From Naegleria gruberi (lineage: Eukaryota): a stretch of 64,000 bases of DNA. The stretch's first letter is position 1. Each line of letters starts with the position of its first letter. Of this stretch, positions 2,280 through 55,511 are shown one piece after another. The stretch lies in assembly GCA_000004985.1 (NCBI GenBank), contig GG738880.1. One strand, given 5' to 3'. The notes under the pieces are model-generated. The model was not told the origin of the DNA. It did no database searches and worked only from the letters and a program-made list of their open reading frames with translations. Made by a program: the position numbers and the translations under genes.

Positions 2280-3576
2280 ATGCTTCAACGTGACTTTGGT
2301 CATTCAAGTTTCGGAATCAGATCCTTATGCTGCAAATCAAAATTTAGAACCTTTATCTTTATTTTGTGGCTCTTCTTCTTTGTATTCTGTGGATATTATC
2401 TTTATTTAATCTCATCTATTCAGAATGTTAAGGAGGATGTGGAAGATACATTCAATGATGACATTAAATTGGATAATCATCAAACTCTCTCTGTCATTCC
2501 TATTCTAATTTTTACTTACAAGAGACCCGATTACCTAAAGAAAACTATTGATACACTGCTGGAGTAAGTTTACATTAAATCAATGAGAAAGTATTAAAGG
2601 AAATTAATGAAGATACATACCTGAATCTGGATTTGATTTACTCGTCTCTCAAGATGGATATGAGGAACAAGTGACAAAAGCTATCAAAAGATATGGAGGA
2701 AAAATTAAACATCATTTTCAAAGAGAGAGAAATGTAATCATGACTGATAAGAATCCAAACTTTTTATCATATTATGCTATTGCACAACACTACAAATTTG
2801 GAATTGATAGTGTCTTCAAAGCTGATGAAAAATATGATAGAATCATTATTTTGGAGGAGGATTTACAAGTTTCAAATGACTTTTTTGATTACTTTGGCAA
2901 ATTGTCACCTTTATTGGATAGGGATAGTTCTCTATTTTGCATTTCTGCTTGGAACGATAATGGAATGAGTGATTTCGTACAGGATTCTCCCAAAGTATAT
3001 AGATCTGACTTCTTCCCAGGACTTGGTTGGATGATGACACGAAAATTGTGGGAGGAAGATTTTGGTCCAAAGTGGCCATTAGGATTTTGGGATGATTGGA
3101 TCAGAGAAGGTCAAAATAGAAGGGGAAGAGCTTGTATAAGGCCTGAAATCTCTAGAACATTCACATTTGGATCTGTGGGAGGAGCAAGTTCCAATCAGTT
3201 TTCAAACTTCCTCAGTAGAATTAAATTGAATAGTGAAAAGGTTGACTGGGAACATTTTGATATTAATTCACTCAGAAAATCCAATTATGACAGGAATTTA
3301 ATTCAAGAAGTCAACTCGGCTACTCTTGTTAATAGTGTTGCAGAATTACTCAATAAGGAGAGAAGGAATGAGAATATTCGATTGATATATTCTAACAGTG
3401 AGGAGTATTTGGACATTGCCAGACAATTAGGAATTATGGATGATATCAAATCAGGAGTACCAAGAGGAGCCTATTTAGGAATTGTAACAGTAAAGTGGAG
3501 ATCCAATACTTTACACATTACAACCAAATCACTCAAACCAGTAACATATAGAAACTCTTCACCTTACAAATTGTGA
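2280..3576 (+). CDS. Alpha-1,3-mannosyl-glycoprotein 2-beta-N-acetylglucosaminyltransferase-like (GlcNAc-transferase I, GT13), type II membrane protein. Exons 2280..2563 and 2613..3576, intron 2564..2612 (49 nt).
   Basis: The N-terminal TM anchor is followed by IPILIFTYKRPDYLKKTIDTLLE|YIPESGFDLLVSQDGYEEQVT, and the protein includes EEDLQVSNDFFDYF and CISAWNDNG. These parallel the MGAT1 motifs LLHYRPSAELFPIIVSQDCGHEET, EDDLEVAPDFFEYF and CVSAWNDNG. The splice (GA|gtaagt...tgaag|A) restores the frame exactly. Confidence 0.8.
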
Positions 3577-6256: not shown

Positions 6257-6330
6257 GCCTTCCTAGCTCAGTTGGCAGTAGCGCTGTCCTAGTAAGACAG
6301 AGGTCTTGGGTTCGATTCCCAAGGGAGGCA
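6257..6330 (+). tRNA. tRNA-Thr (anticodon AGT)
   Basis: 74-nt cloverleaf. The acceptor stem gccttcc/ggaggc has one G-U pair. The D arm is agctcagttggcagtagcgc. The anticodon stem ctgtc/gacag has loop cTAGTaa. The T arm is ttggg-ttcgatt-cccaa with the GTTCGATTC box. A T-run lies downstream. Confidence 0.85.
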
Positions 6331-26927: not shown

Positions 26928-29763
26928 ATGCTTCGAAATCCGACCCAAGTATCTTCTTCAGCCACCAGCAACGACACTTCATTTGCCTCTAATTTAAAAA
27001 AAACAGAACCTCCAACTTCAACAGCTATTGTTCCCAACAATAATACATCACCACTCCATCAAGGCGATCAGTGTATCAATTTCGGAGCAGCAACAACAAA
27101 CAATATAGTAAATTGTACTACAACAACAAATTTGAGAGGAGGAACTCAACAAACAATTGCGATGGCAATGGATAAAGTTGAACCTGTTTCAAGTGGTTTT
27201 GGTGTTGGATTGGTTGATACGGAAAATTTTGTAAATACAAAACAAGTTGGCAATCAGAGAATGATTTCGACAACCACCTCTCCTGTGGTTATTAAAAAAG
27301 AAGGAACCAAACAATTAGATAACATGATTGAGGATTTTCTATTAACTAAAAGTTCAAGTTCGACTGCTCATGACGAAATTACTCCAAATAGAAATGCAAT
27401 TATTGAAGAAGAGGAAAGTAGTGATGAGGATTATAGTGACGAGGATAACAGTGACCATAGCGATGAAGAATCTAATGAAGAAGAAGAAAGATCTTCAGAA
27501 TCTGAAGATCTTGAGGAAACAAAACCAAATTTAGATACTAGTACGTTGAGTCAAACAAATAATGAGAATCAAGCAGGAACTGATGTAGATGATCCTCTAG
27601 CTGTTAAAACAATGATTTCACCTCAAGATTTACAAACCATTTCATATGAGGTAAATGAGAAATTGAATGAATCTGTACAAAAAGAATTCGATCTCAGTAA
27701 GGAGGAACAAGTATTGGATTCATTCTTGTGTGCCTACTATGAAAGCAAAATGCCTCAACAAGGTAAAATGTACATTACTCAAAATTACATTTGTTTTTCA
27801 TCCAATATTTTTGGGTATAAGATTTGTGTAAGTATTTGGAAAGTAGATTAGTAATTAATTATTATCAAATTATTATCAGTTAGTTATTTCTTTCAGTGAT
27901 GTTAAAAGCATTGAAAAAAAGATGACAGCAATGATAATTCCTAACGCTATTGAGATTTTCCTTAAAGATGGTTCTTCACACTTTTTTGGATCGTTTGTAT
28001 TCAGAGATAATGTTTACAAGGTTTTACTTGCCCTTTATTCATTGCATGCAAAGGCAAGAGGAAACATTTTAATAAGTCTTCGATCAGCTAATAATGTCTT
28101 GCAAGCTGTTAATACTCCTAACATCAAACCACCAAATCTCACTACCGATTCTTCCTATGTCACTGAAGAGGATGACAATGAAGATGAGGAAGAAGAGTTA
28201 GAAACTGAAGATGAAACTGAAGAAGAAGATGAAAGCGAAGAAGAAGAGAATACCTCCGAGAGTGATGAGCCAATTGTAATCAATAAGGTTACAAATATTC
28301 CAGTCGAATCTATGGCAAAAGGTGCTGCCGATACCAACCAATCCCAACCAAAAGCTAATGGAGAGGCCTCAAAGAGCAAAGCTAATAATGGAGGTGAGGA
28401 AAAAGAAAATGGAAATCAAACTAATGGAAATAATGAAGAAAAGAGAGCAAATGATAACTCAGAAAATAATAATGGCAACAATAATGGAAACAACCCAAAC
28501 AATAATCAAAACAATGCTCCGAATGGAAATGGAGAAGAGCAAGAAGAAGAGGAAGAAGAAGAAGAATGTCAGCTGCCAGAAGAGGAAGAGAAAATAACTG
28601 GAATTAATGATCTTCCTGGTGGTGAATTCTTTGCTGATCCAGACAAATTCAAACCAAAAGAAATTGCCGCAGAAGTACTTCCAGTCAGTATTTTTGATGC
28701 TTGGTTCTTGCTTAAATCAGATAATACCAACTTCCAACTCGAACATCACAAGTCCAGAGAAGAAACAAGTGTACAATATTCTTCATATGTTAAACTTGCT
28801 GGTTCTCCTGGCTTGATGAGAAAGGTGGCCTTCATAGCCAAAGTTAATAACTCCCTTGGGCCAAAGAGTACTAGAATTGAATGCGTAGAAAGAGCTGTTC
28901 TCTGTAAAGGAAAGAAGAGAATAATCAACCAAACCTCATCTAGTAGTTTAGATGTTCCATTCAGTGATACATTCAAAATTCAAAACTATTGGATTTTCGA
29001 GGATATCGATGGAAAGTCTTGCACTCTTAAAATCTATAGTGGAGTTCACTTTTTGAAATCATCCCTCCTTAGATGGAAAATTGAAGATGCTGGTGATAAG
29101 GAATCAAAACAGGCCTTAACTGTTTGGTTAGCTCAAGCTAAGGAAGCTGTTGCTAATGCCAAATCAGCTGGTAATTTGCATTCCCTCAAAAAGGGAAAGC
29201 CTCGTAAAAAGAAGGCAACTACCAAAGATACAAAGAAACGATCAAAGAGAAAGACTTCAGAAGTTAAACCACAGGCTACTGCCGTCGCTTTTGCAACTGA
29301 AAATCCTTTTGCAAGTACATCTGCTCCAGCACCTGAGATTGAATTAGATTTAATGACTAAGACTCTCAATTTTGTGTTTGGAATACCAGGGTATCTTTCT
29401 GCTAACATCACTTTACCTGCCTGGCTGTTACTAACTGTTATAATAGCCTTATTATTCTTACTATTTTCGCAGCAATATACAATCATACAGACAATGAAAC
29501 AAGTAGAATATAATGTACAGACCTACAAACAACAGACAATACTTTTCGAACAAGAACTTAATCATTTGGTATTCAATTTAGCTAATGTTAATGCAACAGC
29601 ATTGTCAGAAAACAGTCAGAACCTACAAAATCAAATAGCTAATTGGTTGACTGCAAGGAATGAGCTCTATAAGATGCATATAGACAATGACTTGCTGCAT
29701 TCATTACTGTATGAGTTATCTGAAATTAAGAAAATTATGCACAAAAAAGATGGGAATGGTTGA
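26928..29763 (+). CDS. GRAM + VASt domain sterol-transfer protein (GRAMD1/Aster/Lam/Ysp2-like) with a C-terminal TM anchor. Exons 26928..27827 and 27880..29763, intron 27828..27879 (52 nt).
   Basis: The GRAM domain MYITQNYICFSSNIFGYKIC|LVISFSDVKSIEKKMTAMIIPNAIEIF aligns residue-for-residue in length with GRAMD1A LYLSENWICFYSNIFRWETLLTVRLKDICSMTKEKTARLIPNAIQV once the TGT|gtaagt...ttatcag| intron is removed. A VASt-like region follows (FFADPDKF...FDAWFLLKSDNTNF...NYWIFEDIDGKSCTLKIY). The TM anchor is LPAWLLLTVIIALLFLLF. Confidence 0.7.
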
Positions 29764-29785
29764 ATAAACGACTAAGCAATGAGTT

Positions 29786-30847
29786 TTATCCAGTCTTTTT
29801 GTGTTCCTTATGCTTTTGATAGGAAACAAATATATCATACATTAAACCAATGAAAACAATAAGAACACCAGACCATTGAACGCCAGACATGTGGTGACCA
29901 AAAGTGAAAACAGACCACAAAATGGTAAAGAATTTTCTGGTTGTTGTAATGATAGAGAGCTCAAGAGTTCCAAAACTTGCAATGCACCAAAAGATGAAAA
30001 TTTGTCCAAGAGCCATAGTAATACAGAAGATGGCAATATGTTGAATAATCTCTGGATGATTCATACAGAATTCAACTGCTGGGAAGAATTGACCAGTATA
30101 AAACATAGCAATACCAACAAAAATACTGGCATATAAATTCATATTAAGCATCAAGTCATCACTTGTTGGCTTATGTTCCAATGTTCTCATAAGATCTTGA
30201 ATAGAGTTTGTGAAACCATCAGCTGCCAATGAGACAATCAATAATAATAATCCGTAAGTGTTGTTCTCATTTTCACTGTCTTCCTTGTGCTTATGTCCAA
30301 ATCTATCAATCATAAATACTGAAATACCAACTGTTGTCATGAGGACAGCAACAATTCTTGAGAAGGAATATTGTTTTTTAGCAACTAGCATACCCATAAT
30401 CATAACTGGAATCATTTTACAAGATTTAGCCAAAACTTGAGTTGGGTAATTAACATAAATTAAAGCAGCATTACTTGAACTAGAGGCAATAACGTATGCC
30501 AATGAAGCTCCAATATAATAATATCTTGGAACAACACTCTTTCTTCCACGTTCACTAGGGTATAACCTAAGTTTACCAAAAGCAGTAATATAATTTAAAA
30601 CACATTGTAAAAACACCAAAAATAGAGGAAAGTTAAAATAACTATCACCGTAAGGTCTTCTAGTAATTTGCTCTTGATAGGATGACATGGCCATAAAAGT
30701 GGCATAAATACCAACTACAACTTGAATCAACTCAAAAGATGACTTGAGGAAAGACTTGTGATGATCGGAACGATTATGTGCTGTATTTGGACTCTTTCCA
30801 GTCTCCACATCTTCTTGGTTCATTGATTGAGCAAAATGTCCTTCCAT
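29786..30847 (-). CDS. Nucleotide-sugar transporter, SLC35B-type (UAA family; UDP-galactose/PAPS transporter-like). A possible extra 5' exon at 31147..30973 is spliced across a 72-nt intron at 30901..30972.
   Basis: A protein with roughly ten TM helices and nucleotide-sugar-transporter-like spacing, ending in a C-terminal KxK basic tail. The ORF-track start at 30862 is a GTG, and the first ATG is at 30847. The upstream ORF 30947..31147 ends AATG|gtaggt, and acceptor aataatag| reads in frame into this ORF. Confidence 0.65.
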   Translation of the reverse strand: MEGHFAQSMNQEDVETGKSPNTAHNRSDHHKSFLKSSFELIQVVVGIYATFMAMSSYQEQITRRPYGDSYFNFPLFLVFLQCVLNYITAFGKLRLYPSERGRKSVVPRYYYIGASLAYVIASSSSNAALIYVNYPTQVLAKSCKMIPVMIMGMLVAKKQYSFSRIVAVLMTTVGISVFMIDRFGHKHKEDSENENNTYGLLLLIVSLAADGFTNSIQDLMRTLEHKPTSDDLMLNMNLYASIFVGIAMFYTGQFFPAVEFCMNHPEIIQHIAIFCITMALGQIFIFWCIASFGTLELSIITTTRKFFTILWSVFTFGHHMSGVQWSGVLIVFIGLMYDIFVSYQKHKEHKKTG

Positions 30848-31621
30848 CGGAAAGTTTGCCACAGAAACACTTCTCGGTAATTCCTCATCATCAAAATTTA
30901 CTATTATTCATACAAAAAATTAAAACAACATTTATAATGATTATAATCATCCCCACATTACAATAAACCTACCATTTGTATATTCCGTATTGTTATCGAC
31001 TCGTTGTGTTTGTTGCGTGTGTCTTTTATTTATACCAACATGATTCACTCGTTGTTGCATTTTTTTTTTCGGAATGTTTTGATAATTGATGTTTTCTTCT
31101 TGCTGTTTTGCGCACGTGTCTTTTTTCATACCAAATTTTAAAGCCATTTTCTGTTATGTTAAGAGGAAGAGCCATTTAGGTGATATGAATGAGTGAGGAA
31201 TTGATTTGGTGGATATGGATTGACTTGAAAATGGTTCTGTTTCGAATAATAAACGAATTGATAAAGAGTAAACTTTATTGAGTGAATGAGAAATATTAAA
31301 TAGGCAAGGAATGAAGAACCTTGATCATTTGAATCCTAACACTTGTTGGACAATTGCATGAATTGATATAGAAACTGATCCATAGTACAATTACCACCTT
31401 AATCAAATGAGTGACTCTAGTCTCTAGAATATTTGAATGGCTGGTTCAAGGCGATGCAATTCCAATGGAAGTTCCGTAAAAAGCACAATCGGAATCGAGA
31501 TCACAACATGTTGGAAACCATTTTTGAATGCAAGCTAAATTTGTTTGTATTGTAAACGGAATTACAAAATTTTAATTTTAAAATTTCCAAAAAAGTTTCC
31601 TCGGAATTTGAGATACAGGAC

Positions 31622-31627
31622 TATAAA
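31622..31627 (+). promoter_or_regulatory. Candidate TATA box (TATAAA) ~90 bp upstream of the hsp20 ATG. The same motif is present in copy 2 at about 34776.
   Basis: ctataaattc precedes an A-rich leader. The position suits a core promoter. I found no perfect heat-shock-element triplet, only imperfect GAA/TTC patterns near 31425 and 31479. Confidence 0.3.
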
Positions 31628-31715
31628 TTCAATCACAACACTCTAATCCTTATTTTACACAACAAAAAAAACAAATAATACACAATCACTACTGCAAAAC
31701 AAGCAATATCTGAAA

Positions 31716-32183
31716 ATGAGCTCCAACAATCATCACAATAATAAGCAATTGGCCAGACAACACAGAACCAATAATTGGGTTGATACTTTCTTTGATGATC
31801 CATTCTTGAGAGCATTTGATAGATTTGATGATAGATTAGTTCCTGAATTTAAACCAACTACTGATGTTTCTGAAACTGCAAATGAAGTTAAAATTGTTTG
31901 TAATGTTCCTGGTATGACAAAGGATGATTTAAAGATTGATATTGATGAAGAGCATAGAACCATGACTGTCAGTGGTCATGTTGAAAAGGAAAAGAAGGAA
32001 GATAATGAAAGATATCACTGTGTTGAAAGATCACATGGTTCTTTCAGTAGAACTGTCTATTTACCACCAAATGCTGATTTTGATAAGGTCAAGGCAGCTT
32101 TGGAACATGGTGTTTTGAGAGTTACTATTCCAAAAGTAGTTGAAGAACCAAAGAAAAAGACCAGATCAATTGATATTCAATAA
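31716..32183 (+). CDS. Small heat-shock protein (Hsp20/alpha-crystallin domain), copy 1
   Basis: 155 aa. The alpha-crystallin domain is EVKIVCNVPGMTKDDLKIDIDEEHRTMTVSGHVEKEKKEDNERYHCVERSHGSFSRTVYLPPNADFDKVKAALEHGVLRVTIPK. The translation is identical to copy 2. Confidence 0.9.
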   Translation: MSSNNHHNNKQLARQHRTNNWVDTFFDDPFLRAFDRFDDRLVPEFKPTTDVSETANEVKIVCNVPGMTKDDLKIDIDEEHRTMTVSGHVEKEKKEDNERYHCVERSHGSFSRTVYLPPNADFDKVKAALEHGVLRVTIPKVVEEPKKKTRSIDIQ

Positions 32184-32341
32184 TTGTTACTATTTTGTAA
32201 ATAAATTTTTTGTAAAAATACGACCAATAAATTCTTTAAATTAATCTCTTTATTGTAAATTACGTTTACTTGGACTAGTTGGTGGTCGAACATCAACATC
32301 TTCGGCCAAGCTACTGCTTTGAAATAATCCAAATGATTTAC

Positions 32342-32391
32342 NNNNNNNNNNNNNNNNNNNNNNNNNNNNNNNNNNNNNNNNNNNNNNNNNN
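32342..32391. other. Assembly gap (50 N)
   Basis: A run of N directly in the sequence. It interrupts duplicated copy 1 and precedes the 5'-open ORF at 32395. Confidence 1.
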
Positions 32392-32394
32392 TTA

Positions 32395-33883
32395 TTGACT
32401 GAAAATTCAAAGGCTTGTGAGGTTTTCACCTCGTTGCGTTCTGACTGTAAGAGGAACCGAGTTGCTCATGATAACAGAGTTGTAAAGAGTGATCCAGCAA
32501 GGATTATTGGTTCATCCATTGTGTTGCTCTGCAAGTATGTTGATGAGTATATCAATGTTGCTTATGGAACTTTAAAGTCTCTACCAGTGGCTGGGTGTGA
32601 GACTGTTCAGGTTGAAATCAAAGATTGTCTCAAACATCAAAATCTATTCACCGATACCATTATGAATGCAGGATCAATTATCGATTATCCATGGTCGCTA
32701 CTGTCCAAGGACAAGACAGAGGAAGGTATTAATATTAATAACCTATTATTAAGTAATCCCCCACCATCTAGAAGAAGTATTACTCCTGTAAACAATCTAT
32801 TGGTGTTTAGTACCCCTAATGTAGATAGTACTGCTAATACTTCTCTTGGTTCTTCAGGTGTTGATTTGACTCCCTCTGTTGGTTTGGATAGTGCTCTTAA
32901 TTCTTCCTCTTACTTCTTCCTCTGCTACTAGTGCTGCTATTGTTGATTTGAATAGTGTTGCTGAACTACCACCTCCTCCTACTCCTCCTCCTACTATTTC
33001 TGTTGATTTGAATAGTACTGGTGGTACTGTTAATCCTACCTCCTCTGCTGTTAGTGTTGTTGTTGCTACTCCTGTTGTTGGTTTGGGTAGTAGTACTCTT
33101 CCTACTGATTCTTTTGTTGGAAATTTGAACAGTAATACTACTATGGTTGAGTCTACTCCTTTCGTTAGAGGTAATGATAAATCAAACGAGTTGGGTGATC
33201 CTTCAACTACTATTGATGATGGTCCAATTGTTGTTGAAGAGCCTACTTCTTTGAGTAGTGCTCATTTGCATATTGTTACTGCTCTCTTTCAGGGTACTGA
33301 CATCTATGTGCCAACCTCCAGCAAGCCATACTGGGCATTCAGAGCAGTAGAAGCAAAACGATTAATTGATAACAATTTTGCATTAGCCCAACATAATGCC
33401 TACTTGGAAAAACAAGTTAAAGAAGATTCAATCTTTCAAGACAGTATTACCAAACTTGTGGAAGCAAAAAACGCTTCTAGAAAAAACACTTCACCAATAG
33501 TTACAACAGTTGATCTAATGTTTGATGGTATGACTAGAACTGTTTCCCATGAAGAATTCGAAAAGTTCAAAAATAGTAGCAAAATTAATGAAACAATTGA
33601 TCAAGTGATGCAATGGTTTGATTTGGTTGAGGATGATTTGAAATCCAAGAAGAAGGAATTTGATACCTTTCTATTACAGTACAAGGGATGTAAAATGGCA
33701 GATAGTACCATCAGAAATAGAGTTCCCTATGCTAGAAAGAGGGATGCTGCATTGGCATCTTCTTCCACAGGCACTTCCGAACCACCCAAAAAGGCCAGAA
33801 AAAAGTCACCAAACTCTGCCTCTAGTTCTTCTGATGATGGTGGTGATGCACATTCACCTGCAAGTAATGCTCCTCATCAATAG
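32395..33883 (+). CDS. Hypothetical S/T/P-rich protein with VDLNS-type internal repeats. It is 5'-truncated by the gap and carries a +1 frame change near 32905..32930, so it may be a sequencing error or a pseudogene.
   Basis: Two overlapping ORFs (frames 1 and 2) switch inside a tcttcctct/tacttcttcctct micro-repeat. No GT..AG intron of suitable length exists there. The ORF is open up to the N gap, and its 'start' is a TTG. Confidence 0.4.
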
Positions 33884-34272
33884 AATCATCTCTTGGGTAC
33901 TCAGAGATCAACAATGGGTGTGATGGTGGCTGTTGTTGTTCAATTTTTTTTATGATTGATTCTCCCACTGAATTGATGGGAGATTTGTCATTAATCCATC
34001 ACCACACCAACAATCATCACGATGATAATAAACATTCAACTTTGTACCAAATTCAACAAGTGCACTTTGCTTTTTTATTATGAATTTCTACACAGTCTTA
34101 CTGTTAAGATCTTGGTCGCTCAAATTTGATGAAAAAACTTTGCAAAAAATTGATTTTTTCATCAATTTTTTTCATCAATTTCATTTTTTCCTTCATTTTT
34201 TCCATTGTTCAGTTTTTCACTCAGTCACGCTACTGAATGCCTCTACTGAAAAAATTAAAATCGCCATTCGGG

Positions 34273-35493
34273 TTTTTTCATACCAAATTTTAAAGCCATT
34301 TTCTGTTATGTTAAGAGGAAGAGCCATTTAGGTTGATATGAATGAGTGAGGAATTGATTTGGTGGATATGGATTGACTTGAAAATGGTTCTGTTTCGAAT
34401 AATAAACGAATTGAAAAAGAGTAAACTTTATTGAGTGAATGAGAAATATTAAATAGGCAAGGAATGAAGAATCCTTGATCATTTGAATCCTAACACTTGT
34501 TGGACAATTGCATGAATTGATATAGAAACTGATCCATAGTACAATTACCACCTTAATCAAATTAGTGACTCTAGTCTCTAGAATATTTGAATGGCTGGTT
34601 CAAGGCGATGCAATTCCAATGGAAGTTGCGTAAAAAGCACAATCGGAATCGAGATCACAACATGTTGGAAACCATTTTTGAATGCAAGCTAAATTTGTTT
34701 GTATTGTAAACGGAATTACAAAATTTTAATTTTAAAATTTCCAAAAAAGTTTCCTCGGAATTTGAGATACAGGACTATAAATTCAATCACAACACTCTAA
34801 TCCTTATTTTACACAACAAAAAAAACAAATAATACACAATCACTACTGCAAAACAAGCAACAACTGAAAATGAGCTCCAACAATCATCACAATAATAAGC
34901 AATTGGCCAGACAACACAGAACCAATAATTGGGTTGATACTTTCTTTGATGATCCATTCTTGAGAGCATTTGATAGATTTGATGATAGATTAGTTCCTGA
35001 ATTTAAACCAACCACTGATGTTTCTGAAACTGCAAATGAAGTTAAAATTGTTTGTAATGTTCCTGGTATGACAAAGGATGATTTAAAGATTGATATTGAT
35101 GAAGAGCATAGAACCATGACTGTCAGTGGTCATGTTGAAAAGGAAAAGAAGGAAGATAATGAAAGATATCACTGTGTTGAAAGATCACATGGTTCTTTCA
35201 GTAGAACTGTCTATTTACCACCAAATGCTGATTTTGATAAGGTCAAGGCAGCTTTGGAACATGGTGTTTTGAGAGTTACTATTCCAAAAGTAGTTGAAGA
35301 ACCAAAGAAAAAGACCAGATCAATTGATATTCAATAATTGTTACTATTTTGTAAATAAATTTTTTGTAAAAATACGACCAATAAATTCTTTAAATTAATC
35401 TCTTTATTGTAAATTACGTTTACTTGGACTAGTTGGTGGTCGAACATCAACATCTTCGGCCAAGCTACTGCTTTGAAATAATCCAAATGATTT
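34273..35493. repeat. Copy 2 of the duplicated block, continuous with the intact ankyrin gene downstream
   Basis: See copy 1. Here the block runs without a break into the 35404..37650 gene. Confidence 0.85.
34870..35337 (+). CDS. Small heat-shock protein (Hsp20/alpha-crystallin), copy 2
   Basis: The protein is identical to copy 1. The CDS differs by a silent ACT/ACC change, and the leader also differs. Confidence 0.9.
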   Translation: MSSNNHHNNKQLARQHRTNNWVDTFFDDPFLRAFDRFDDRLVPEFKPTTDVSETANEVKIVCNVPGMTKDDLKIDIDEEHRTMTVSGHVEKEKKEDNERYHCVERSHGSFSRTVYLPPNADFDKVKAALEHGVLRVTIPKVVEEPKKKTRSIDIQ

Positions 35494-37650
35494 ACGAAGA
35501 GAAAAACCAGAACTTGACATTGAACGAGCAGTTCTTGTGTGAATTTGACTCGGTGAGTGAAGTGGATTCGAGTAGAAATCGTCAAAATTGCGTTTTGATT
35601 TGTTACCTGTTGGAGAGCAAACTCTGAAATGTTGAGGAAACTTTTCAAAGTAATCAGTCTCATTACACAACAAATCAAAAGTAGATGAGGGAGTGGTTGG
35701 TGGGTTTGTCGTGTTAGAATTCTTAGAAGGAGAAGCTGGTGTGGAGTGTGGAGAATTAGGTAAAGGATGCAGAGATACTAATCCAGTTGAAATTAAATTG
35801 AAAATAATCTTTTGGAACGTATCCTTCTCTCCTCTAACACCAAGAATGTGAATGGAGGAAGTGCTTGTAGAACTTTGGTTGGCAGAATCAAGAGATTGAA
35901 CAGGCATCTCTTTGGCTTCTTTTTTACAATGCTTAGCGAGTGCAAAAGCAGCATAGAAAATTGGAGGTCTATTCTTGGTATCGGCAGAATTCAAAACTTT
36001 GAGAGAGGTTGGTGTGTTTGGAATGAGGTTCTGAATTTGAATTATTGGAGTGTTAAATGAGGGAGATGAGGGCGGTGATTTAATTAGAATAGAATTGTAT
36101 GAATCTCCATTCCTTGGTTGTTTGATAGTGATTGGAATGGAAGTAGTGGTTGTGGCACATGAAATTGAAGTCAGAGGAGAAGGAGGAGAGGTAATCTTGT
36201 TTTGTTCTTTTTGAGGAATGGCATTTGAGCACATTAATATAATTGTTTCTACAACATTGATTGAACCTTGTTTGCATGCCAAGTGTAAAGGGGTGAGACC
36301 AGTATTGTCTTTCATCATTAATTGCTCCATATAAAATTCTGTATCAAACATGAGAGCAATCAATCTGAAAAAGTCTGCACAATCATGGACTGCAGCAATA
36401 TGAAGAGTGGTTCTCTTCATTGAGTCAATTGGGGCATGATTACTACCAGATGAGTTTTGAGATGAAATCTCTGCCATCAGCAAGTACATCAAGCATACTT
36501 GCTTTTCAGCTGGTGTTTTGGATACTGTTGATCGATATTCCTTGATGGCTAACATGAGTGGTGTCAAACCATTTTCTTCCTTTGCTTGAATAAGAACTTT
36601 TCCATGAGCACTCAATCTTAATTCCATATTGGAAGTGTCTCCAGTTAATATTGAACTAGTTTCTTGCTCTGGTGACATTGATGTACAGCACATATCTTGC
36701 AAACATTCTCTGTACATTAATTCATCCAAATCATGATCTGATTCATCAACTTCTTCTGTTTTTGACTTTTTCTTATTTCTCTCTTTGATTAATTCATTTC
36801 TTTCCAGGAGTAAAAGTTTCATTCCTTCAATATCATAGTTGGAAGCAGCTAAATGCAGTAAACTTCTGGAATTTGTCGACTTCTTCGTCCGTATTGAATT
36901 AGTTGGCAATATTCCCAACAAGAACCTCACAACCTCAAGTCTACCATTTTGCATTGCTAATAAGAGAGGAGTATTTCCAAAGATATCCCTACTATCCAAG
37001 CTCTCTTTTGCTTGGGAGAAGAGTAAATTGACAACTAAAACATTACCACTAGCAGCTGCATAATGGAATGGTGTGGCCAGAGAAGCATCTACACAATATT
37101 TGTCTACATCACTCCTCAGCAGTAGCTCCCTCGTAATGCAAATGTGTCCATAAGCACATGCCTTATGTAGAGCAGTTGCCCTCCTCTCATCTCTCACATT
37201 GATATCGAAAAAGTTGAAATCCTTGTTGTTGAAATCTTGTTCATGACTATTCCCAAGTTTTTTATCGAGAACATCTATTAATTGTTTGAATAATAGCAAA
37301 TCTCCATTAGTACACGAATATAAGAAGAGGTGTTTCCATTCATAACCACTCAATTCGGAATACTCATTCTCTTGTGGTTTTCTTGTTTTTTGTTTTTTAG
37401 GTTGCTGATTCTGGTTTGATGTTGTTGTTTCATCAGTGTTAGTATTAGTGGTGATTGAAGTAGTTATTATTGTTGAATTTGCTGTATTTGATGAAGTGGA
37501 AACGTCCACAGTTTCGTCTAGATTTGTTTCGTCTGATGAGGCATTGAATACATTATTTTCTTCATAAAGTAAAAGTGAAGGAGATGTATTAGACATTGTT
37601 ACCCCACTACTACTGAGTACTATTGTTGAAATGGACAAGTCTGACAACAT
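35404..37650 (-). CDS. Ankyrin-repeat protein with S/T-rich N- and C-terminal regions
   Basis: 748 aa. It has at least five ANK repeats, including ATALHKACAYGHICITRELL, TPFHYAAASGNVLVVNLL, GNTPLLLAMQNGRLEVVRFLL and LTPLHLACKQGSINVVETI. Confidence 0.75.
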   Translation of the reverse strand: MLSDLSISTIVLSSSGVTMSNTSPSLLLYEENNVFNASSDETNLDETVDVSTSSNTANSTIITTSITTNTNTDETTTSNQNQQPKKQKTRKPQENEYSELSGYEWKHLFLYSCTNGDLLLFKQLIDVLDKKLGNSHEQDFNNKDFNFFDINVRDERRATALHKACAYGHICITRELLLRSDVDKYCVDASLATPFHYAAASGNVLVVNLLFSQAKESLDSRDIFGNTPLLLAMQNGRLEVVRFLLGILPTNSIRTKKSTNSRSLLHLAASNYDIEGMKLLLLERNELIKERNKKKSKTEEVDESDHDLDELMYRECLQDMCCTSMSPEQETSSILTGDTSNMELRLSAHGKVLIQAKEENGLTPLMLAIKEYRSTVSKTPAEKQVCLMYLLMAEISSQNSSGSNHAPIDSMKRTTLHIAAVHDCADFFRLIALMFDTEFYMEQLMMKDNTGLTPLHLACKQGSINVVETIILMCSNAIPQKEQNKITSPPSPLTSISCATTTTSIPITIKQPRNGDSYNSILIKSPPSSPSFNTPIIQIQNLIPNTPTSLKVLNSADTKNRPPIFYAAFALAKHCKKEAKEMPVQSLDSANQSSTSTSSIHILGVRGEKDTFQKIIFNLISTGLVSLHPLPNSPHSTPASPSKNSNTTNPPTTPSSTFDLLCNETDYFEKFPQHFRVCSPTGNKSKRNFDDFYSNPLHSPSQIHTRTARSMSSSGFSLRKSFGLFQSSSLAEDVDVRPPTSPSKRNLQ

Positions 37651-38454: not shown

Positions 38455-40044
38455 ATGAACAATTCACTTCTCCAACCCATCTCAAGTGATATTTGGAAAC
38501 ATCAGATATTTCCCTATCATTGTTATGCTGATTATATTTCATTGAAGAGGACATGTAGATTTTTGTATAAATTAATTATGAACAGTTCCGATTCTAAAAG
38601 ATTGGAAGGGTTTTTAAAATTTTGTAGATTGATGCATCGGACTGATCATGATGAATATTTGTTCACTTATTTGGAGCCTATTAATGTGATGCCATTCTCT
38701 TGTAGAACTTCGAATACTCTTCCTGATTATTCTTCGCCAACAACTACTCCTACAACAAGAGTATTTCCTAATTTCTCAACTTATTATTTAAATTGGGAAG
38801 AATTTGAATATTTAATTGCTGTAATTCCTCATCATGAGCTGAGAAGGATATGGGATAAATTTATAGTTAGTCCTGTATTTAGAGGAAGATTGATAATATC
38901 TGAAGTTGACCGAGATGGGATTAGTGAAACAATTGTTAACAAAATATTGTTAAATGCTATTAAACAAGATCCTAGAAAGTTCAACTCAATCTCTAAATGG
39001 ATTTCATGTACTTTACCCAACTTGTTATGTCAAATATCAGACATGCAAGAGCTGATGTTTCAGTTGATTTTAGATGGCGCACCAATAGCATTGCTCTCTG
39101 ATCGACTCAGACACAACAAGGAATTTATAATAGAATTATTGAGGTACTGTAATATACCATTGAATGAATTGGAGGAACAATTTCAGTACGATGTTGATGT
39201 AGTTCTCCAATCAGTCTCCAATGATCCCAATAATTATACATTCTTATCCAATTCAATTAAATCAGAAAGATCAGTGACCATACAAATGATTAATAATGCA
39301 TACAAGATTAAGGACTTTACCAATTCCAATAAGACTTTTGTTAGAATATTCGAAAAATATATACCTATGGTATTTAGAAACGATAGGGAAATTATGGAAC
39401 TTTCACTCAGACAAGATTCCTCCATCATGCCTCTCGTATCGGATGCATTGAAGAATAATAAGGAATTTGTTGTGAATGCATTGAAAATTTCCACCACATG
39501 CTTTCCTCACATTTCCTTAGAATTAAGAAGTGATCCAGAAGTTTGTCTATTAGCACTGAGAAACTCAAATTCCAAAACCATGATCATGACACATATGAAT
39601 TGTCTTCTCCTCTACGACGAAGATTTTATGAGAGAAATAGTATCTATTGATGGCATGTTACTTTCATATGCACCAAGTGCAGAAATCATACAGAATCGAG
39701 ATGTTGTTTTAATTGCAGTAAAACAGAATGGATTCGCCCTCCAACATGCAGATAAATCATTGAGGAATGATGAGGAAATAGTGAGAGAGGCCATTATGCA
39801 GGACGGAGAAACAATCATGTTTGCTTCGGAAAGATTGCGAGACAATTTTGAACTAATGGCTGTAGCAGTAACTAAATCAAAAGTTGCCCTTCTCTATGCA
39901 AGTGAACGCCTCAAATCAGATGAAAATCTAGTTTCAATTTCAGTCTACAGTCACCCCAGTAGTTTAAAATTTGCCTCTGCACAGCTATTACAGAATAGCC
40001 AATTCATAGAGCATTTGATTAGAAATGGTGTGACTAACTATTGA
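38455..40044 (+). CDS. F-box-like N-terminus plus DUF4116-type repeats (hypothetical)
   Basis: The C-terminal half is built from ~35-aa repeats such as DVVLIAVKQNGFALQHADKSLRNDEEIVREAIMQDGETIMFASERLRDNFELMAVAV. They match the DUF4116 pattern AVKQNG.ALQYAS..L..D.E.V. Confidence 0.5.
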   Translation: MNNSLLQPISSDIWKHQIFPYHCYADYISLKRTCRFLYKLIMNSSDSKRLEGFLKFCRLMHRTDHDEYLFTYLEPINVMPFSCRTSNTLPDYSSPTTTPTTRVFPNFSTYYLNWEEFEYLIAVIPHHELRRIWDKFIVSPVFRGRLIISEVDRDGISETIVNKILLNAIKQDPRKFNSISKWISCTLPNLLCQISDMQELMFQLILDGAPIALLSDRLRHNKEFIIELLRYCNIPLNELEEQFQYDVDVVLQSVSNDPNNYTFLSNSIKSERSVTIQMINNAYKIKDFTNSNKTFVRIFEKYIPMVFRNDREIMELSLRQDSSIMPLVSDALKNNKEFVVNALKISTTCFPHISLELRSDPEVCLLALRNSNSKTMIMTHMNCLLLYDEDFMREIVSIDGMLLSYAPSAEIIQNRDVVLIAVKQNGFALQHADKSLRNDEEIVREAIMQDGETIMFASERLRDNFELMAVAVTKSKVALLYASERLKSDENLVSISVYSHPSSLKFASAQLLQNSQFIEHLIRNGVTNY

Positions 40045-53775: not shown

Positions 53776-53832
53776 AAGATTCGGTTTTTATTGAGCGACT
53801 ACAGCTATTTACTGTAAAGATTTAGGTGGGTA
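53776..53832 (+). repeat. Dispersed ~57-bp repeat, copy A. Copy B is at 55454..55511 in the same orientation.
   Basis: aagattcggtttttattgagcgactacagctatttactgtaaagatttaggtgggta compared with aagatacggtttttattgagcgactacagttatttactgtaaagatttgtggtgggta shows 3 differences. A weaker second similarity (tttgtWtcgaatSctWW...tttcttcagtt) lies at 54465 and 55712. Confidence 0.7.
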
Positions 53833-55453: not shown

Positions 55454-55511
55454 AAGATACGGTTTTTATTGAGCGACTACAGTTATTTACTGTAAAGATT
55501 TGTGGTGGGTA
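55454..55511 (+). repeat. Dispersed ~57-bp repeat, copy B
   Basis: See copy A. Confidence 0.7.

What the first reader, a model, noticed from the sequence alone, without database searches (positions are those of the whole stretch)
31121..35493. Near-identical 1.2-kb duplicated block carrying an Hsp20 gene and its promoter, bordering an assembly gap and clipping two neighbouring genes
Two copies (31121..32341 and 34273..35493, about 98-99% identity with scattered SNPs and indels) each hold a complete small-HSP gene with identical protein and about 600 bp of upstream sequence. Copy 2 runs into an intact ankyrin gene. Copy 1 holds only the last ~100 nt of that ankyrin gene and is then cut by a 50-N gap. 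Both copies start exactly inside the first 27 nt of a possible upstream exon of the SLC35B transporter (ATGGCTTTAAAATTTGGTATGAAAAAA). This means one breakpoint falls inside a coding exon and the other inside the ankyrin 3' end. A frameshifted, 5'-open S/T-rich ORF at 32395..33883 lies between the copies. Two readings fit. One is a recent tandem duplication amplifying a stress gene. The other is a collapsed or haplotype-derived assembly artefact at a heterozygous locus. Both matter for copy-number interpretation of hsp20.
Basis: seen in the sequence. Interest (0 to 1): 0.6.

Follow-up and report, generated by a model that had tools for sequence, protein, structure and literature searches.

The report
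Probable false hsp20 duplication beside transposon
The two near-identical heat-shock-gene blocks are really in the assembly, but they are most likely the two parental copies of one locus in the amoeba Naegleria gruberi, one of which carries a 3.5-kb mobile element, so the extra hsp20 gene is probably an assembly artefact.

Summary
The repeat is real in the sequence. Copy 1 is 31121..32341 and copy 2 is 34273..35495. They are 99.35% identical (6 substitutions, two 1-nt indels), and each holds an identical 155-aa Hsp20 gene. This is the only sizeable repeat in the 64 kb, and it touches the only gap.

The window is Naegleria gruberi NEG-M, a Sanger-era draft of a heterozygous organism.

The new result concerns the 1.9 kb between the copies. 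It is the right-hand part of a ~3.5-kb element with terminal inverted repeats. An independent Illumina assembly of a very close strain holds the whole element in a different genomic context. Similarity to that contig stops at the base where copy 2 begins (within 1 nt).

So the left edge of copy 2 is a transposon insertion junction, not a duplication junction.

Best reading (about 0.7): one haplotype has the empty site (SLC35B–hsp20–ankyrin) and the other has the element inserted at 31120|31121. The assembler laid the two alleles in series around a gap.

A real duplication in cis, made during transposition, is not excluded (about 0.2).

Public NEG-M nanopore reads would settle it. Interest is low.

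The parts
31121..32341 (+). Copy 1 of the 1.2-kb block. It is continuous on its left with the SLC35B gene and cut on its right by the gap. Proposed to be the 'empty-site' allele.
   Evidence: The junction 31120|31121 is also present in an independent assembly (L005).
31716..32183 (+). hsp20 gene, copy 1 (155 aa). GenBank lists two accessions with this identical sequence, EFC42293.1 and EFC42295.1. Which accession belongs to which copy is inferred from the numbering around EFC42294.1, the protein between them.
32250..32341 (-). Last 92 nt (including the stop codon) of the ankyrin ORF, present in copy 1 and truncated by the contig end.
   Evidence: Position derived from the alignment and the ORF.
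32342..32391 (.). 50-N scaffold gap, the only one in the window. If the locus is collinear with L004, at least 1.64 kb of the element is missing here.
32392..34272 (+). Right-hand 1881 nt of a ~3.5-kb TIR-bounded mobile element. It aligns to L004 1642..3537.
   Evidence: 98.9% identity over the alignment window 32392..34273 = L004 1642..3538, which includes the ambiguous base 34273. This sequence is unique within the window.
32395..33883 (+). Gene B (GenBank EFC42294.1, NAEGRDRAFT_69747). It is truncated at the 5' end by the gap and frameshifted by a 14-nt deletion at about 32910, relative to the intact 542-aa homologue P0012.
34257..34272 (+). Right terminal inverted repeat of the element (AAAATCGCCATTCGGG). 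The terminal motif occurs only once in the window.
   Evidence: 17/18 complementary arms in L004; (0 of 1000 shuffles reach this match).
34273..35495 (+). Copy 2 of the block. It starts at the element's terminus (base 34273 is shared with L004 and therefore ambiguous) and is continuous with the intact ankyrin gene. Proposed to be the 'filled-site' allele.
34870..35337 (+). hsp20 gene, copy 2. The protein is identical to copy 1.
35404..37650 (-). Intact ankyrin-repeat gene (748 aa), convergent with hsp20.
29786..30900 (-). SLC35B/UAA transporter, main exon.
30973..31147 (-). Putative 5' exon of SLC35B, with ATG at 31147 or 31060. A 72-nt GT..AG intron lies at 30901..30972. The element's insertion site, 31120|31121, lies inside this exon.
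   Evidence: in-frame splice giving 429 aa; orthologues of 426-435 aa with a conserved motif upstream of the first Met of the main exon.
31436..32212 (+). Core hsp20 cassette of ~777 nt: about 280 nt of promoter including TATAAAT at 31622..31628, the CDS, and about 30 nt of 3' sequence. It also occurs at ~96% identity in a different genomic context in L001.

Best explanation
The window comes from the Naegleria gruberi NEG-M draft assembly. There is one SLC35B(-) / hsp20(+) / ankyrin(-) locus. On one homologous chromosome it is uninterrupted. On the other, a ~3.5-kb TIR-bounded mobile element carrying gene B has inserted between 31120 and 31121, in the 5' exon or leader of SLC35B.

The assembler could not merge the two alleles across this 3.5-kb difference.
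- Contig 1 followed the empty allele from SLC35B into the hsp20 block. It stopped 482 nt after the last base that distinguishes it from the other allele.
- Contig 2 starts inside the element, crosses the element's right terminus into the hsp20 block, and continues through the ankyrin gene.
- The scaffolder placed the two contigs in series with a 50-N gap. This makes an apparent 1.2-kb duplication and a second hsp20 gene.

Shown: the repeat; the gap; the TIR element and its exact terminus at the start of copy 2; the existence of the SLC35B|block junction in an independent assembly.

Inferred: that the two copies lie on different homologues rather than on one molecule.
For: 1. Source and ploidy. 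Gene B is 100% identical to N. gruberi EFC42294.1 on a 416,450-bp scaffold, and the hsp20 protein equals EFC42293.1/EFC42295.1. Naegleria is described as mainly a heterozygous diploid, and heterozygosity is reported for N. gruberi (PMC9928731).

2. The sequence between the copies is a mobile element.
- L004 is an independent contig from ENA assembly ERZ929261. It matches window 32392..34273 at 98.9%.
- It extends 1641 nt further left with no match in the window.
- It diverges from the window within 1 nt of the junction with copy 2.
- It carries 17/18-complementary inverted repeats 25 nt from each end, a match reached by 0 of 1000 shuffles.
- Its flanks are absent from the window.
- The terminal motif occurs once in the window, at 34262..34272.

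3. The only gap in 64 kb abuts the only large repeat. Gaps between duplicated pairs on one scaffold are a listed hallmark of false haplotype duplications, which are most frequent in Sanger-based assemblies (PMC9516828; PMC2864568).

4. Copy 1 ends 482 nt after the last difference, about one Sanger read length (my estimate). The chance of no difference falling in that stretch, given 8 differences, is 0.018.

5. Divergence. The copies differ by 8 events in 1221 nt (0.66%), 7 of them in the 596 nt of non-coding upstream sequence. This is at least the between-strain divergence at the same locus (14 events in 3601 nt). It is about three times the divergence of the element between strains (4 events in 1882 nt; binomial p=0.05). 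A duplication created together with a recent insertion should be no more diverged than the element itself.

6. Gap size. In the cis reading the 50-N gap must hide at least 1.64 kb of the element plus the rest of copy 1. In the allelic reading nothing need lie between the contigs.
Against: - No reads, depth or mate-pair data could be examined, so linkage of the two copies (cis or trans) was not observed.
- The contig-end signature in point 4 would look the same for a true duplication whose copies are identical beyond 31859.
- L005 covers only 192 nt of the block, so it cannot tell the models apart.
- The divergence test is marginal (p=0.05). It could also be disturbed by gene conversion from the third hsp20 paralogue.
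- Whether the 50 Ns are an estimate or a placeholder is unknown.
- The element has no recognisable transposase. Its target-site duplication cannot be checked in the window because its left end is missing.
- The identity of sample ERR1078381 is unknown.
Confidence: 0.7

Rival explanations
1. Real duplication in cis, created together with the element's insertion. Aberrant or alternative transposition, or replication-based repair, left at least 1.2 kb of target sequence duplicated on both sides of the element. One chromosome would then carry SLC35B, hsp20, an ankyrin 3' fragment, the element, hsp20, and ankyrin.
For: - Both junctions (31120|31121 and 34272|34273) lie inside contigs and so are read-supported.
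- An element sits between two direct copies, starting at its own terminus. From my own knowledge, this is the geometry reported for Ac/Ds-induced tandem direct duplications in maize.
- The scaffolder placed the contigs in this order.
- Both hsp20 ORFs are intact and identical.
Against: - It needs a rare mechanism, where a simple insertion suffices.
- There is no second element end nearby.
- It needs at least 1.64 kb of element plus more of copy 1 hidden in a 50-N gap.
- The copies are about three times more diverged than the element is between strains.
- The gap-adjacent geometry is the classic artefact signature.
Confidence: 0.2
2. Plain recent tandem duplication that amplified the stress gene (for example by unequal crossing-over or replication slippage), with the element irrelevant.
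For: Two intact hsp20 genes with promoters lie in direct orientation 3.15 kb apart. sHSP genes do form multi-copy families: a third paralogue (NAEGRDRAFT_80426) lies on the same scaffold.
Against: - The junction in front of copy 2 is the terminus of a TIR element, not the end of a repeated unit.
- The intervening 1.9 kb is not repeated after copy 2 within the remaining 28.5 kb.
- An insertion landing at the junction of a pre-existing tandem pair would be a large coincidence.
Confidence: 0.04
3. Mis-scaffolding or a chimeric join. Contig 1 and contig 2 would be two unlinked loci that share a dispersed hsp20 paralogue, or the B|block junction would be a chimeric clone.
For: The hsp20 cassette is dispersed. 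L001 carries it at 96% identity in an unrelated context. L004 shows the element without the block on its right.
Against: - The shared block is much longer than the dispersed cassette (1221 nt versus ~777 nt).
- It includes the start of SLC35B at one end and the ankyrin 3' end at the other. This ties both copies to this one locus.
- A random chimera would not break at the terminal base of a TIR.
Confidence: 0.05

Closest known systems
False 'heterotype' (haplotype) duplications in draft diploid assemblies (Kelley & Salzberg 2010, PMC2864568; Ko et al. 2022, PMC9516828)
   Same: - A near-identical pair lies on one scaffold with a gap between its members.
- The assembly is Sanger-era and the organism is heterozygous.
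- A falsely gained gene copy is annotated twice.
   Different: The duplicated block is not at the start of the second contig. It lies 1.9 kb in, because the alleles differ by a 3.5-kb insertion rather than only by SNPs. The read-depth and mate-pair criteria that define the class could not be tested.
Hemizygous insertion of a class II (TIR) DNA transposon
   Same: - There are 17/18-matching terminal inverted repeats and enriched subterminal TCAGT/ACTGA motifs.
- The same element occurs with different flanks in a closely related strain.
- Similarity ends at the terminus, within 1 nt.
   Different: - No transposase domain was found. The only gene belongs to an orphan family with two known members, both in N. 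gruberi.
- TA flanks both ends in L004, but the NEG-M target (GTGTC|TTTTTT) has no TA, so no superfamily can be assigned.
Tandem direct duplications generated by alternative Ac/Ds transposition in maize (own knowledge; not checked in the library)
   Same: Two direct copies of host DNA are separated by a transposon, with the copy boundary at the element's end.
   Different: That mechanism needs two element termini nearby, and the result lies on one chromosome. Only one terminus is in the window, and cis linkage is not shown.
Small heat-shock protein (alpha-crystallin/Hsp20) multigene families
   Same: The protein has a full PF00011 domain. Naegleria and Willaertia have several paralogues. N. 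gruberi has a further 98.7%-identical paralogue on the same scaffold.
   Different: The apparent extra copy here is probably allelic, not paralogous. No canonical heat-shock element (8 or more of 9 positions) was found in the promoter.

Membership tests
False haplotype (heterotype) duplication | Duplicated pair on the same scaffold with a gap between or next to the copies | tested here: met
   The only N run (32342..32391) directly follows copy 1, and this is the only large repeat in 64 kb. The criterion is listed in PMC9516828.
False haplotype (heterotype) duplication | Copies differ at an allelic level (SNPs or small indels) in a heterozygous diploid | tested here: met
   99.35% identity. 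This is comparable to or above the 0.39% between-strain divergence at the same locus. Heterozygous diploidy is taken from the literature (PMC9928731), not measured here.
False haplotype (heterotype) duplication | About half read depth on each copy, and discordant mate pairs across the pair | not testable with these tools
   No reads were available. Public NEG-M nanopore data exist (BioStudies S-BSST1363, cited in PMC12344493).
Real tandem segmental duplication | Junction joins the end of the unit to the start of the unit, so the unit recurs | tested here: not met
   The sequence before copy 2 is a TIR terminus. The spacer does not recur after copy 2 within 28.5 kb.
Real tandem segmental duplication | Both copies on one DNA molecule | not testable with these tools
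   Needs long reads, clones or PCR.
Class II TIR DNA transposon | Terminal inverted repeats at both ends | tested here: met
   L004 26-43 and 3522-3539 are 17/18 complementary. 0 of 1000 shuffles reach this.
Class II TIR DNA transposon | The same element in different genomic flanks (mobility) | tested here: met
   The flanks differ between the window and L004 from the terminus outwards.
Class II TIR DNA transposon | Target-site duplication | tested here: inconclusive
   TA lies on both sides in L004. The left end is missing from the window, and the NEG-M target has no TA.
Class II TIR DNA transposon | Encodes a recognisable transposase (autonomous element) | tested here: not met
   No Pfam domain in B or P0012. 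No other long ORF in the element. Only one distant homologue, also an N. gruberi orphan. Structure models were too poor to search with.
Small heat-shock protein (Hsp20/alpha-crystallin, PF00011) | Alpha-crystallin domain | tested here: met
   PF00011 at E=1.3e-24, covering profile positions 2-102 of 102. Homologues are annotated as SHSP-domain proteins.
Small heat-shock protein (Hsp20/alpha-crystallin, PF00011) | Heat-shock-element promoter or stress induction | tested here: inconclusive
   Only 7/9 matches to a three-unit HSE. A TATA box is present, and about 200 nt of promoter is 100% conserved in paralogue L001. Expression was not tested.
Transposition-generated flanking duplication (Ac/Ds type) | Second element terminus or copy close by to allow alternative transposition | tested here: not met
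   The terminal motif occurs once in the 64 kb. The left half of the element is unassembled, so this is not a complete test.

The most novel reading that the evidence does not exclude
The two copies are truly on one chromosome. Insertion of an unclassified TIR element with no recognisable transposase would have duplicated at least 1.2 kb of its target, creating a second functional hsp20 gene with its promoter. This would be a transposon-mediated gene duplication caught at about 0.7% divergence in a heterolobosean. Possibly the orphan B protein would be part of a new transposition machinery.
Probability: 0.15. Interest if true: 0.5.

Novelty: not a real feature. Interest (0 to 1): 0.2.

Why it matters
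GenBank lists two hsp20 proteins at this locus (EFC42293.1 and EFC42295.1). If they are alleles, N. gruberi has one fewer gene of this Hsp20 subfamily than annotated, and any claim of stress-gene amplification here is unsafe.

The useful by-products are modest:
- evidence for a heterozygous insertion of a previously undescribed TIR element in the reference strain, which disrupts the 5' end of one SLC35B allele;
- a correction of the gene model between the copies, which is truncated, frameshifted, and patched with an artificial 34-nt intron;
- a concrete example of how a hemizygous insertion produces a false duplication that is offset from the gap.

Tried and rejected
- Exact-protein look-ups for the window's hsp20, ankyrin, DUF4116, B, P0010 and P0133 proteins found nothing on record. 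The NEG-M scaffold outside the window, including the third hsp20 copy and the B paralogue, could not be read.
- The N. fowleri hsp20 loci (L002, L003) are not syntenic, with kinesin upstream, and gave no information on the ancestral arrangement.
- Both JGI metagenome scans were unproductive. There were no relatives of B and only distant sHSPs at 26-38% identity.
- No paper mentions PRJEB11402 or ERR1078381. The Fritz-Laylin 2010 and 2011 papers are not held, so the published heterozygosity level and the assembler's gap convention could not be checked.
- Pfam searches of B at E up to 10 gave nothing meaningful.
- Single-sequence AlphaFold models of the N- and C-terminal parts of B had pLDDT 33 and 53. 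No fold search was run.
- The HSE scan found no site matching 8 or more of 9 positions in the promoter.
- I rejected the idea that the hsp20 genes are unannotated. They were missed only because the 90% cluster is represented by P0001.
- I rejected a Tc1/mariner assignment, because the NEG-M target lacks TA.


Full report

Yes. A local alignment gives copy 1 = 31121..32341 (1221 nt) and copy 2 = 34273..35495 (1223 nt). There are 6 substitutions and two single-T insertions in copy 2, so identity is 99.35%.

The differences are at these copy 1 / copy 2 positions:
- 31181 / 34333 (indel)
- 31262 / 34415
- 31319 / 34472 (indel)
- 31409 / 34563
- 31474 / 34628
- 31707 / 34861
- 31709 / 34863
- 31859 / 35013

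The final 482 nt of copy 1 are identical to copy 2. The 50-N run at 32342..32391 is the only gap in the window. This pair is the only repeat above 60 nt in the whole 64 kb.

Each copy holds a 155-aa ORF, at 31716..32183 and 34870..35337. The two proteins are identical and have a full Hsp20/alpha-crystallin domain (PF00011, E=1.3e-24). The only coding difference is synonymous.

- Copy 2 continues into an intact 748-aa ankyrin-repeat ORF at 35404..37650(-).
- Copy 1 holds only the last 92 nt of that ORF before the gap.
- The left neighbour is a UAA/SLC35B-type nucleotide-sugar transporter.

**2. Where does the window come from?**

The ORF between the copies is 100% identical to a Naegleria gruberi predicted protein (EFC42294.1, NAEGRDRAFT_69747) on a 416,450-bp scaffold. 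The hsp20 protein is recorded under two GenBank accessions, EFC42293.1 and EFC42295.1, which flank EFC42294.1 in numbering. The reference annotation therefore already counts the two copies as two genes.

A third paralogue, EFC42357.1 (NAEGRDRAFT_80426), differs by 2 aa and lies on the same scaffold outside the window.

The literature held here describes Naegleria as mainly a heterozygous diploid and cites heterozygosity in N. gruberi (PMC9928731). From my own knowledge, NEG-M was assembled from Sanger shotgun reads at JGI. I could not open the genome paper.

**3. What lies between the copies?**

This is the key result. The 90% cluster of protein B contains a 542-aa member, P0012, from ENA assembly ERZ929261 (run ERR1078381). 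Its 3564-nt contig, L004, could be fetched.

- L004 1642..3538 aligns to window 32392..34273 at 98.9%. There are two isolated SNPs, one homopolymer indel, and a 14-nt indel with three adjacent mismatches. That indel explains the window's frameshift at about 32910.
- L004 extends 1641 nt further left. This stretch holds the start of B and about 1.5 kb more, and has no match anywhere in the window.
- On the right, L004 and the window are the same up to ...AAAATCGCCATTCGGG(T). They then diverge completely. The window continues with copy 2 (TTTTTCATACC...) and L004 continues with ACCAAGGAAAAAC....
- L004 has inverted repeats at 26-43 and 3522-3539 (TACCCGAATGGCGGTTTT / AAAATCGCCATTCGGGTA). They are 17/18 complementary and lie 25 nt from each contig end. 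None of 1000 shuffles reach this match.
- TCAGT/ACTGA motifs are enriched in both subterminal regions.
- The terminal 11-mer occurs once in the window, at 34262..34272, the last bases before copy 2.
- L004's own flanks are absent from the window.

So 32392..34272 is the right-hand 1.9 kb of a ~3.5-kb TIR-bounded mobile element. That element sits at a different site in a strain that is 99.4-99.8% identical to NEG-M. The left boundary of copy 2 is the element's insertion junction.

**4. The insertion site.**

A second contig from the same assembly, L005, matches window 31313..27702 at 99.4%. It crosses 31120|31121 without interruption. The SLC35B|block junction is therefore an ordinary 'empty site'.

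L005 reaches only 192 nt into the block. It cannot say what follows copy 1. Its two informative sites carry the copy 2 variants.

The site lies in the 5' exon of SLC35B:
- Orthologues from N. fowleri, N. lovaniensis and Willaertia magna are 426-435 aa long.
- They share the motif D/E-x-Y-E-L/M-x-R-S-V/I-S-V/M-A-N. In the window this motif is encoded in frame upstream of the first Met of the main ORF.
- Splicing an upstream exon (30973..31147, with a 72-nt GT..AG intron) restores a 429-aa protein.
- The second ATG, at 31060, gives MQQRV..., which resembles the orthologues' MQQRR/MQRKH starts.

The insertion is therefore either 27 nt into the CDS or 60 nt upstream of it.

**5. Cis or trans?**

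Both junctions, 31120|31121 and 34272|34273, lie inside contigs and are real. The open question is whether they lie on one chromosome (a duplication) or on the two homologues (an empty allele and a filled allele).

I favour the allelic reading for six reasons.

a) A simple insertion explains why the repeat begins at the element's terminus. The cis reading needs a kilobase-scale duplication of the target, which ordinary transposition does not produce.

b) The only gap in 64 kb abuts the only repeat. Gaps between duplicated pairs on one scaffold are a recognised hallmark of false haplotype duplications, which are commonest in Sanger assemblies (PMC9516828, PMC2864568).

c) Contig 1 ends 482 nt after the last discriminating base, roughly one Sanger read length by my estimate. 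The chance of no difference falling there, given 8 differences, is 0.018. This signature would also fit identical true copies.

d) The copies differ by 8 events in 1221 nt, 7 of them in the 596 non-coding nt. This is at least the between-strain divergence at this locus (14 events in 3601 nt). It is about three times the divergence between the two strains' copies of the element (4 events in 1882 nt; p=0.05). A duplication born together with the insertion should not be older than the element copies.

e) In cis, the 50-N gap would have to hide at least 1.64 kb of element plus more of copy 1.

f) The missing left half of the element, and contig 2 starting in unique coding sequence, are easier to understand at hemizygous (half) coverage.

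None of this is direct linkage evidence. I put the allelic artefact at about 0.7, a transposition-associated real duplication at about 0.2, and other explanations at about 0.1.

**6. What the parts do.**

- hsp20 is a normal small heat-shock protein gene. It has a TATA box at 31622..31628, 94 nt upstream of the ATG.
- A ~777-nt cassette (about 280 nt of promoter, the CDS, and about 30 nt of 3' sequence) recurs at ~96% identity in an unrelated context in L001. There it sits between a 7TM/RGS-like gene and others. About 200 nt of promoter is 100% conserved. Real dispersed paralogues therefore exist.
- No canonical three-unit heat-shock element was found; the best matches are 7/9.
- Protein B has no Pfam domain.
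- An exhaustive HMMER search of 1.84 billion cluster representatives found only one other family member. It is N. gruberi NAEGRDRAFT_70662, at 32% identity over 532 aligned positions by BLASTP, with conserved N- and C-terminal regions around a variable S/T/N-rich middle.
- Structure models of B were unusable.
- The element therefore cannot be assigned to a superfamily. TA flanks both ends in L004, but the NEG-M target has no TA.

**7. Verdict.**

- The 'stress-gene amplification' reading is not supported.
- The 'haplotype artefact' reading is supported, and sharpened into a hemizygous transposon insertion.
- As a biological duplication it is probably not a real feature.
- The real and ordinary biology is a transposon insertion polymorphism.
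- Public NEG-M nanopore reads (S-BSST1363, cited in PMC12344493) would decide the matter in one mapping run.

Noticed in passing
outside the window, same 416,450-bp scaffold (protein P0010 = EFC42357.1, NAEGRDRAFT_80426): A third hsp20 gene differs from the window's protein at 2 residues (A55T, I138V). The metagenome paralogue P0001 (L001) is closer to it than to the window's copies. Real dispersed copies of this hsp20 therefore exist.
   Followed up: partly
window 31436..32212 and 34590..35366; L001 2806..3584: A ~777-nt hsp20 'cassette' (promoter, CDS and short 3' end) is ~96% identical between this locus and an unrelated locus. About 200 nt upstream of the ATG is 100% conserved. This suggests either a strongly constrained promoter or gene conversion between paralogues.
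   Followed up: partly
window 32665..33883 (GenBank model EFC42294.1): The reference gene model for B starts at an internal Met. It also skips the frameshift with an implausible 34-nt 'intron' (32857..32890). The intact homologue in L004 reads straight through, with 14 extra nt. The NEG-M copy is therefore either a pseudogene or carries a consensus error near a contig end.
   Followed up: yes
L004 1..25 and 3540..3564: The independent contig ends only 25 and 26 nt beyond the two TIR arms. Neither random low coverage nor a simple k=127 graph branch explains both ends being so close to the termini.
   Followed up: no
L004 1417..1518 versus P0133 residues 1..73: The ORF of B stays open upstream of its annotated Met (KKKKKKKEQFSLQ-MGADDL). 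The paralogue has 73 more N-terminal residues with a matching lysine run. B probably has further 5' exons within the left 1.5 kb of the element.
   Followed up: no
window 30847..30862 and L005 456..1517: The automated ORF calls for SLC35B start at MEGHF. They miss a conserved N-terminal motif that requires the spliced exon at 30973..31147.
   Followed up: yes
window 34123..34181: An imperfect AT-rich palindrome (TTGATGAAAAAA...TTTTTTCATCAA) lies in the right subterminal region of the element.
   Followed up: no
window 38455..40044 (+); 6257..6330 (+); 53776..53832 and 55454..55511: Three unrelated features: a 529-aa protein made of seven DUF4116 repeats, a tRNA-Thr(AGT), and a 58-nt direct repeat at 93% identity.
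   Followed up: no
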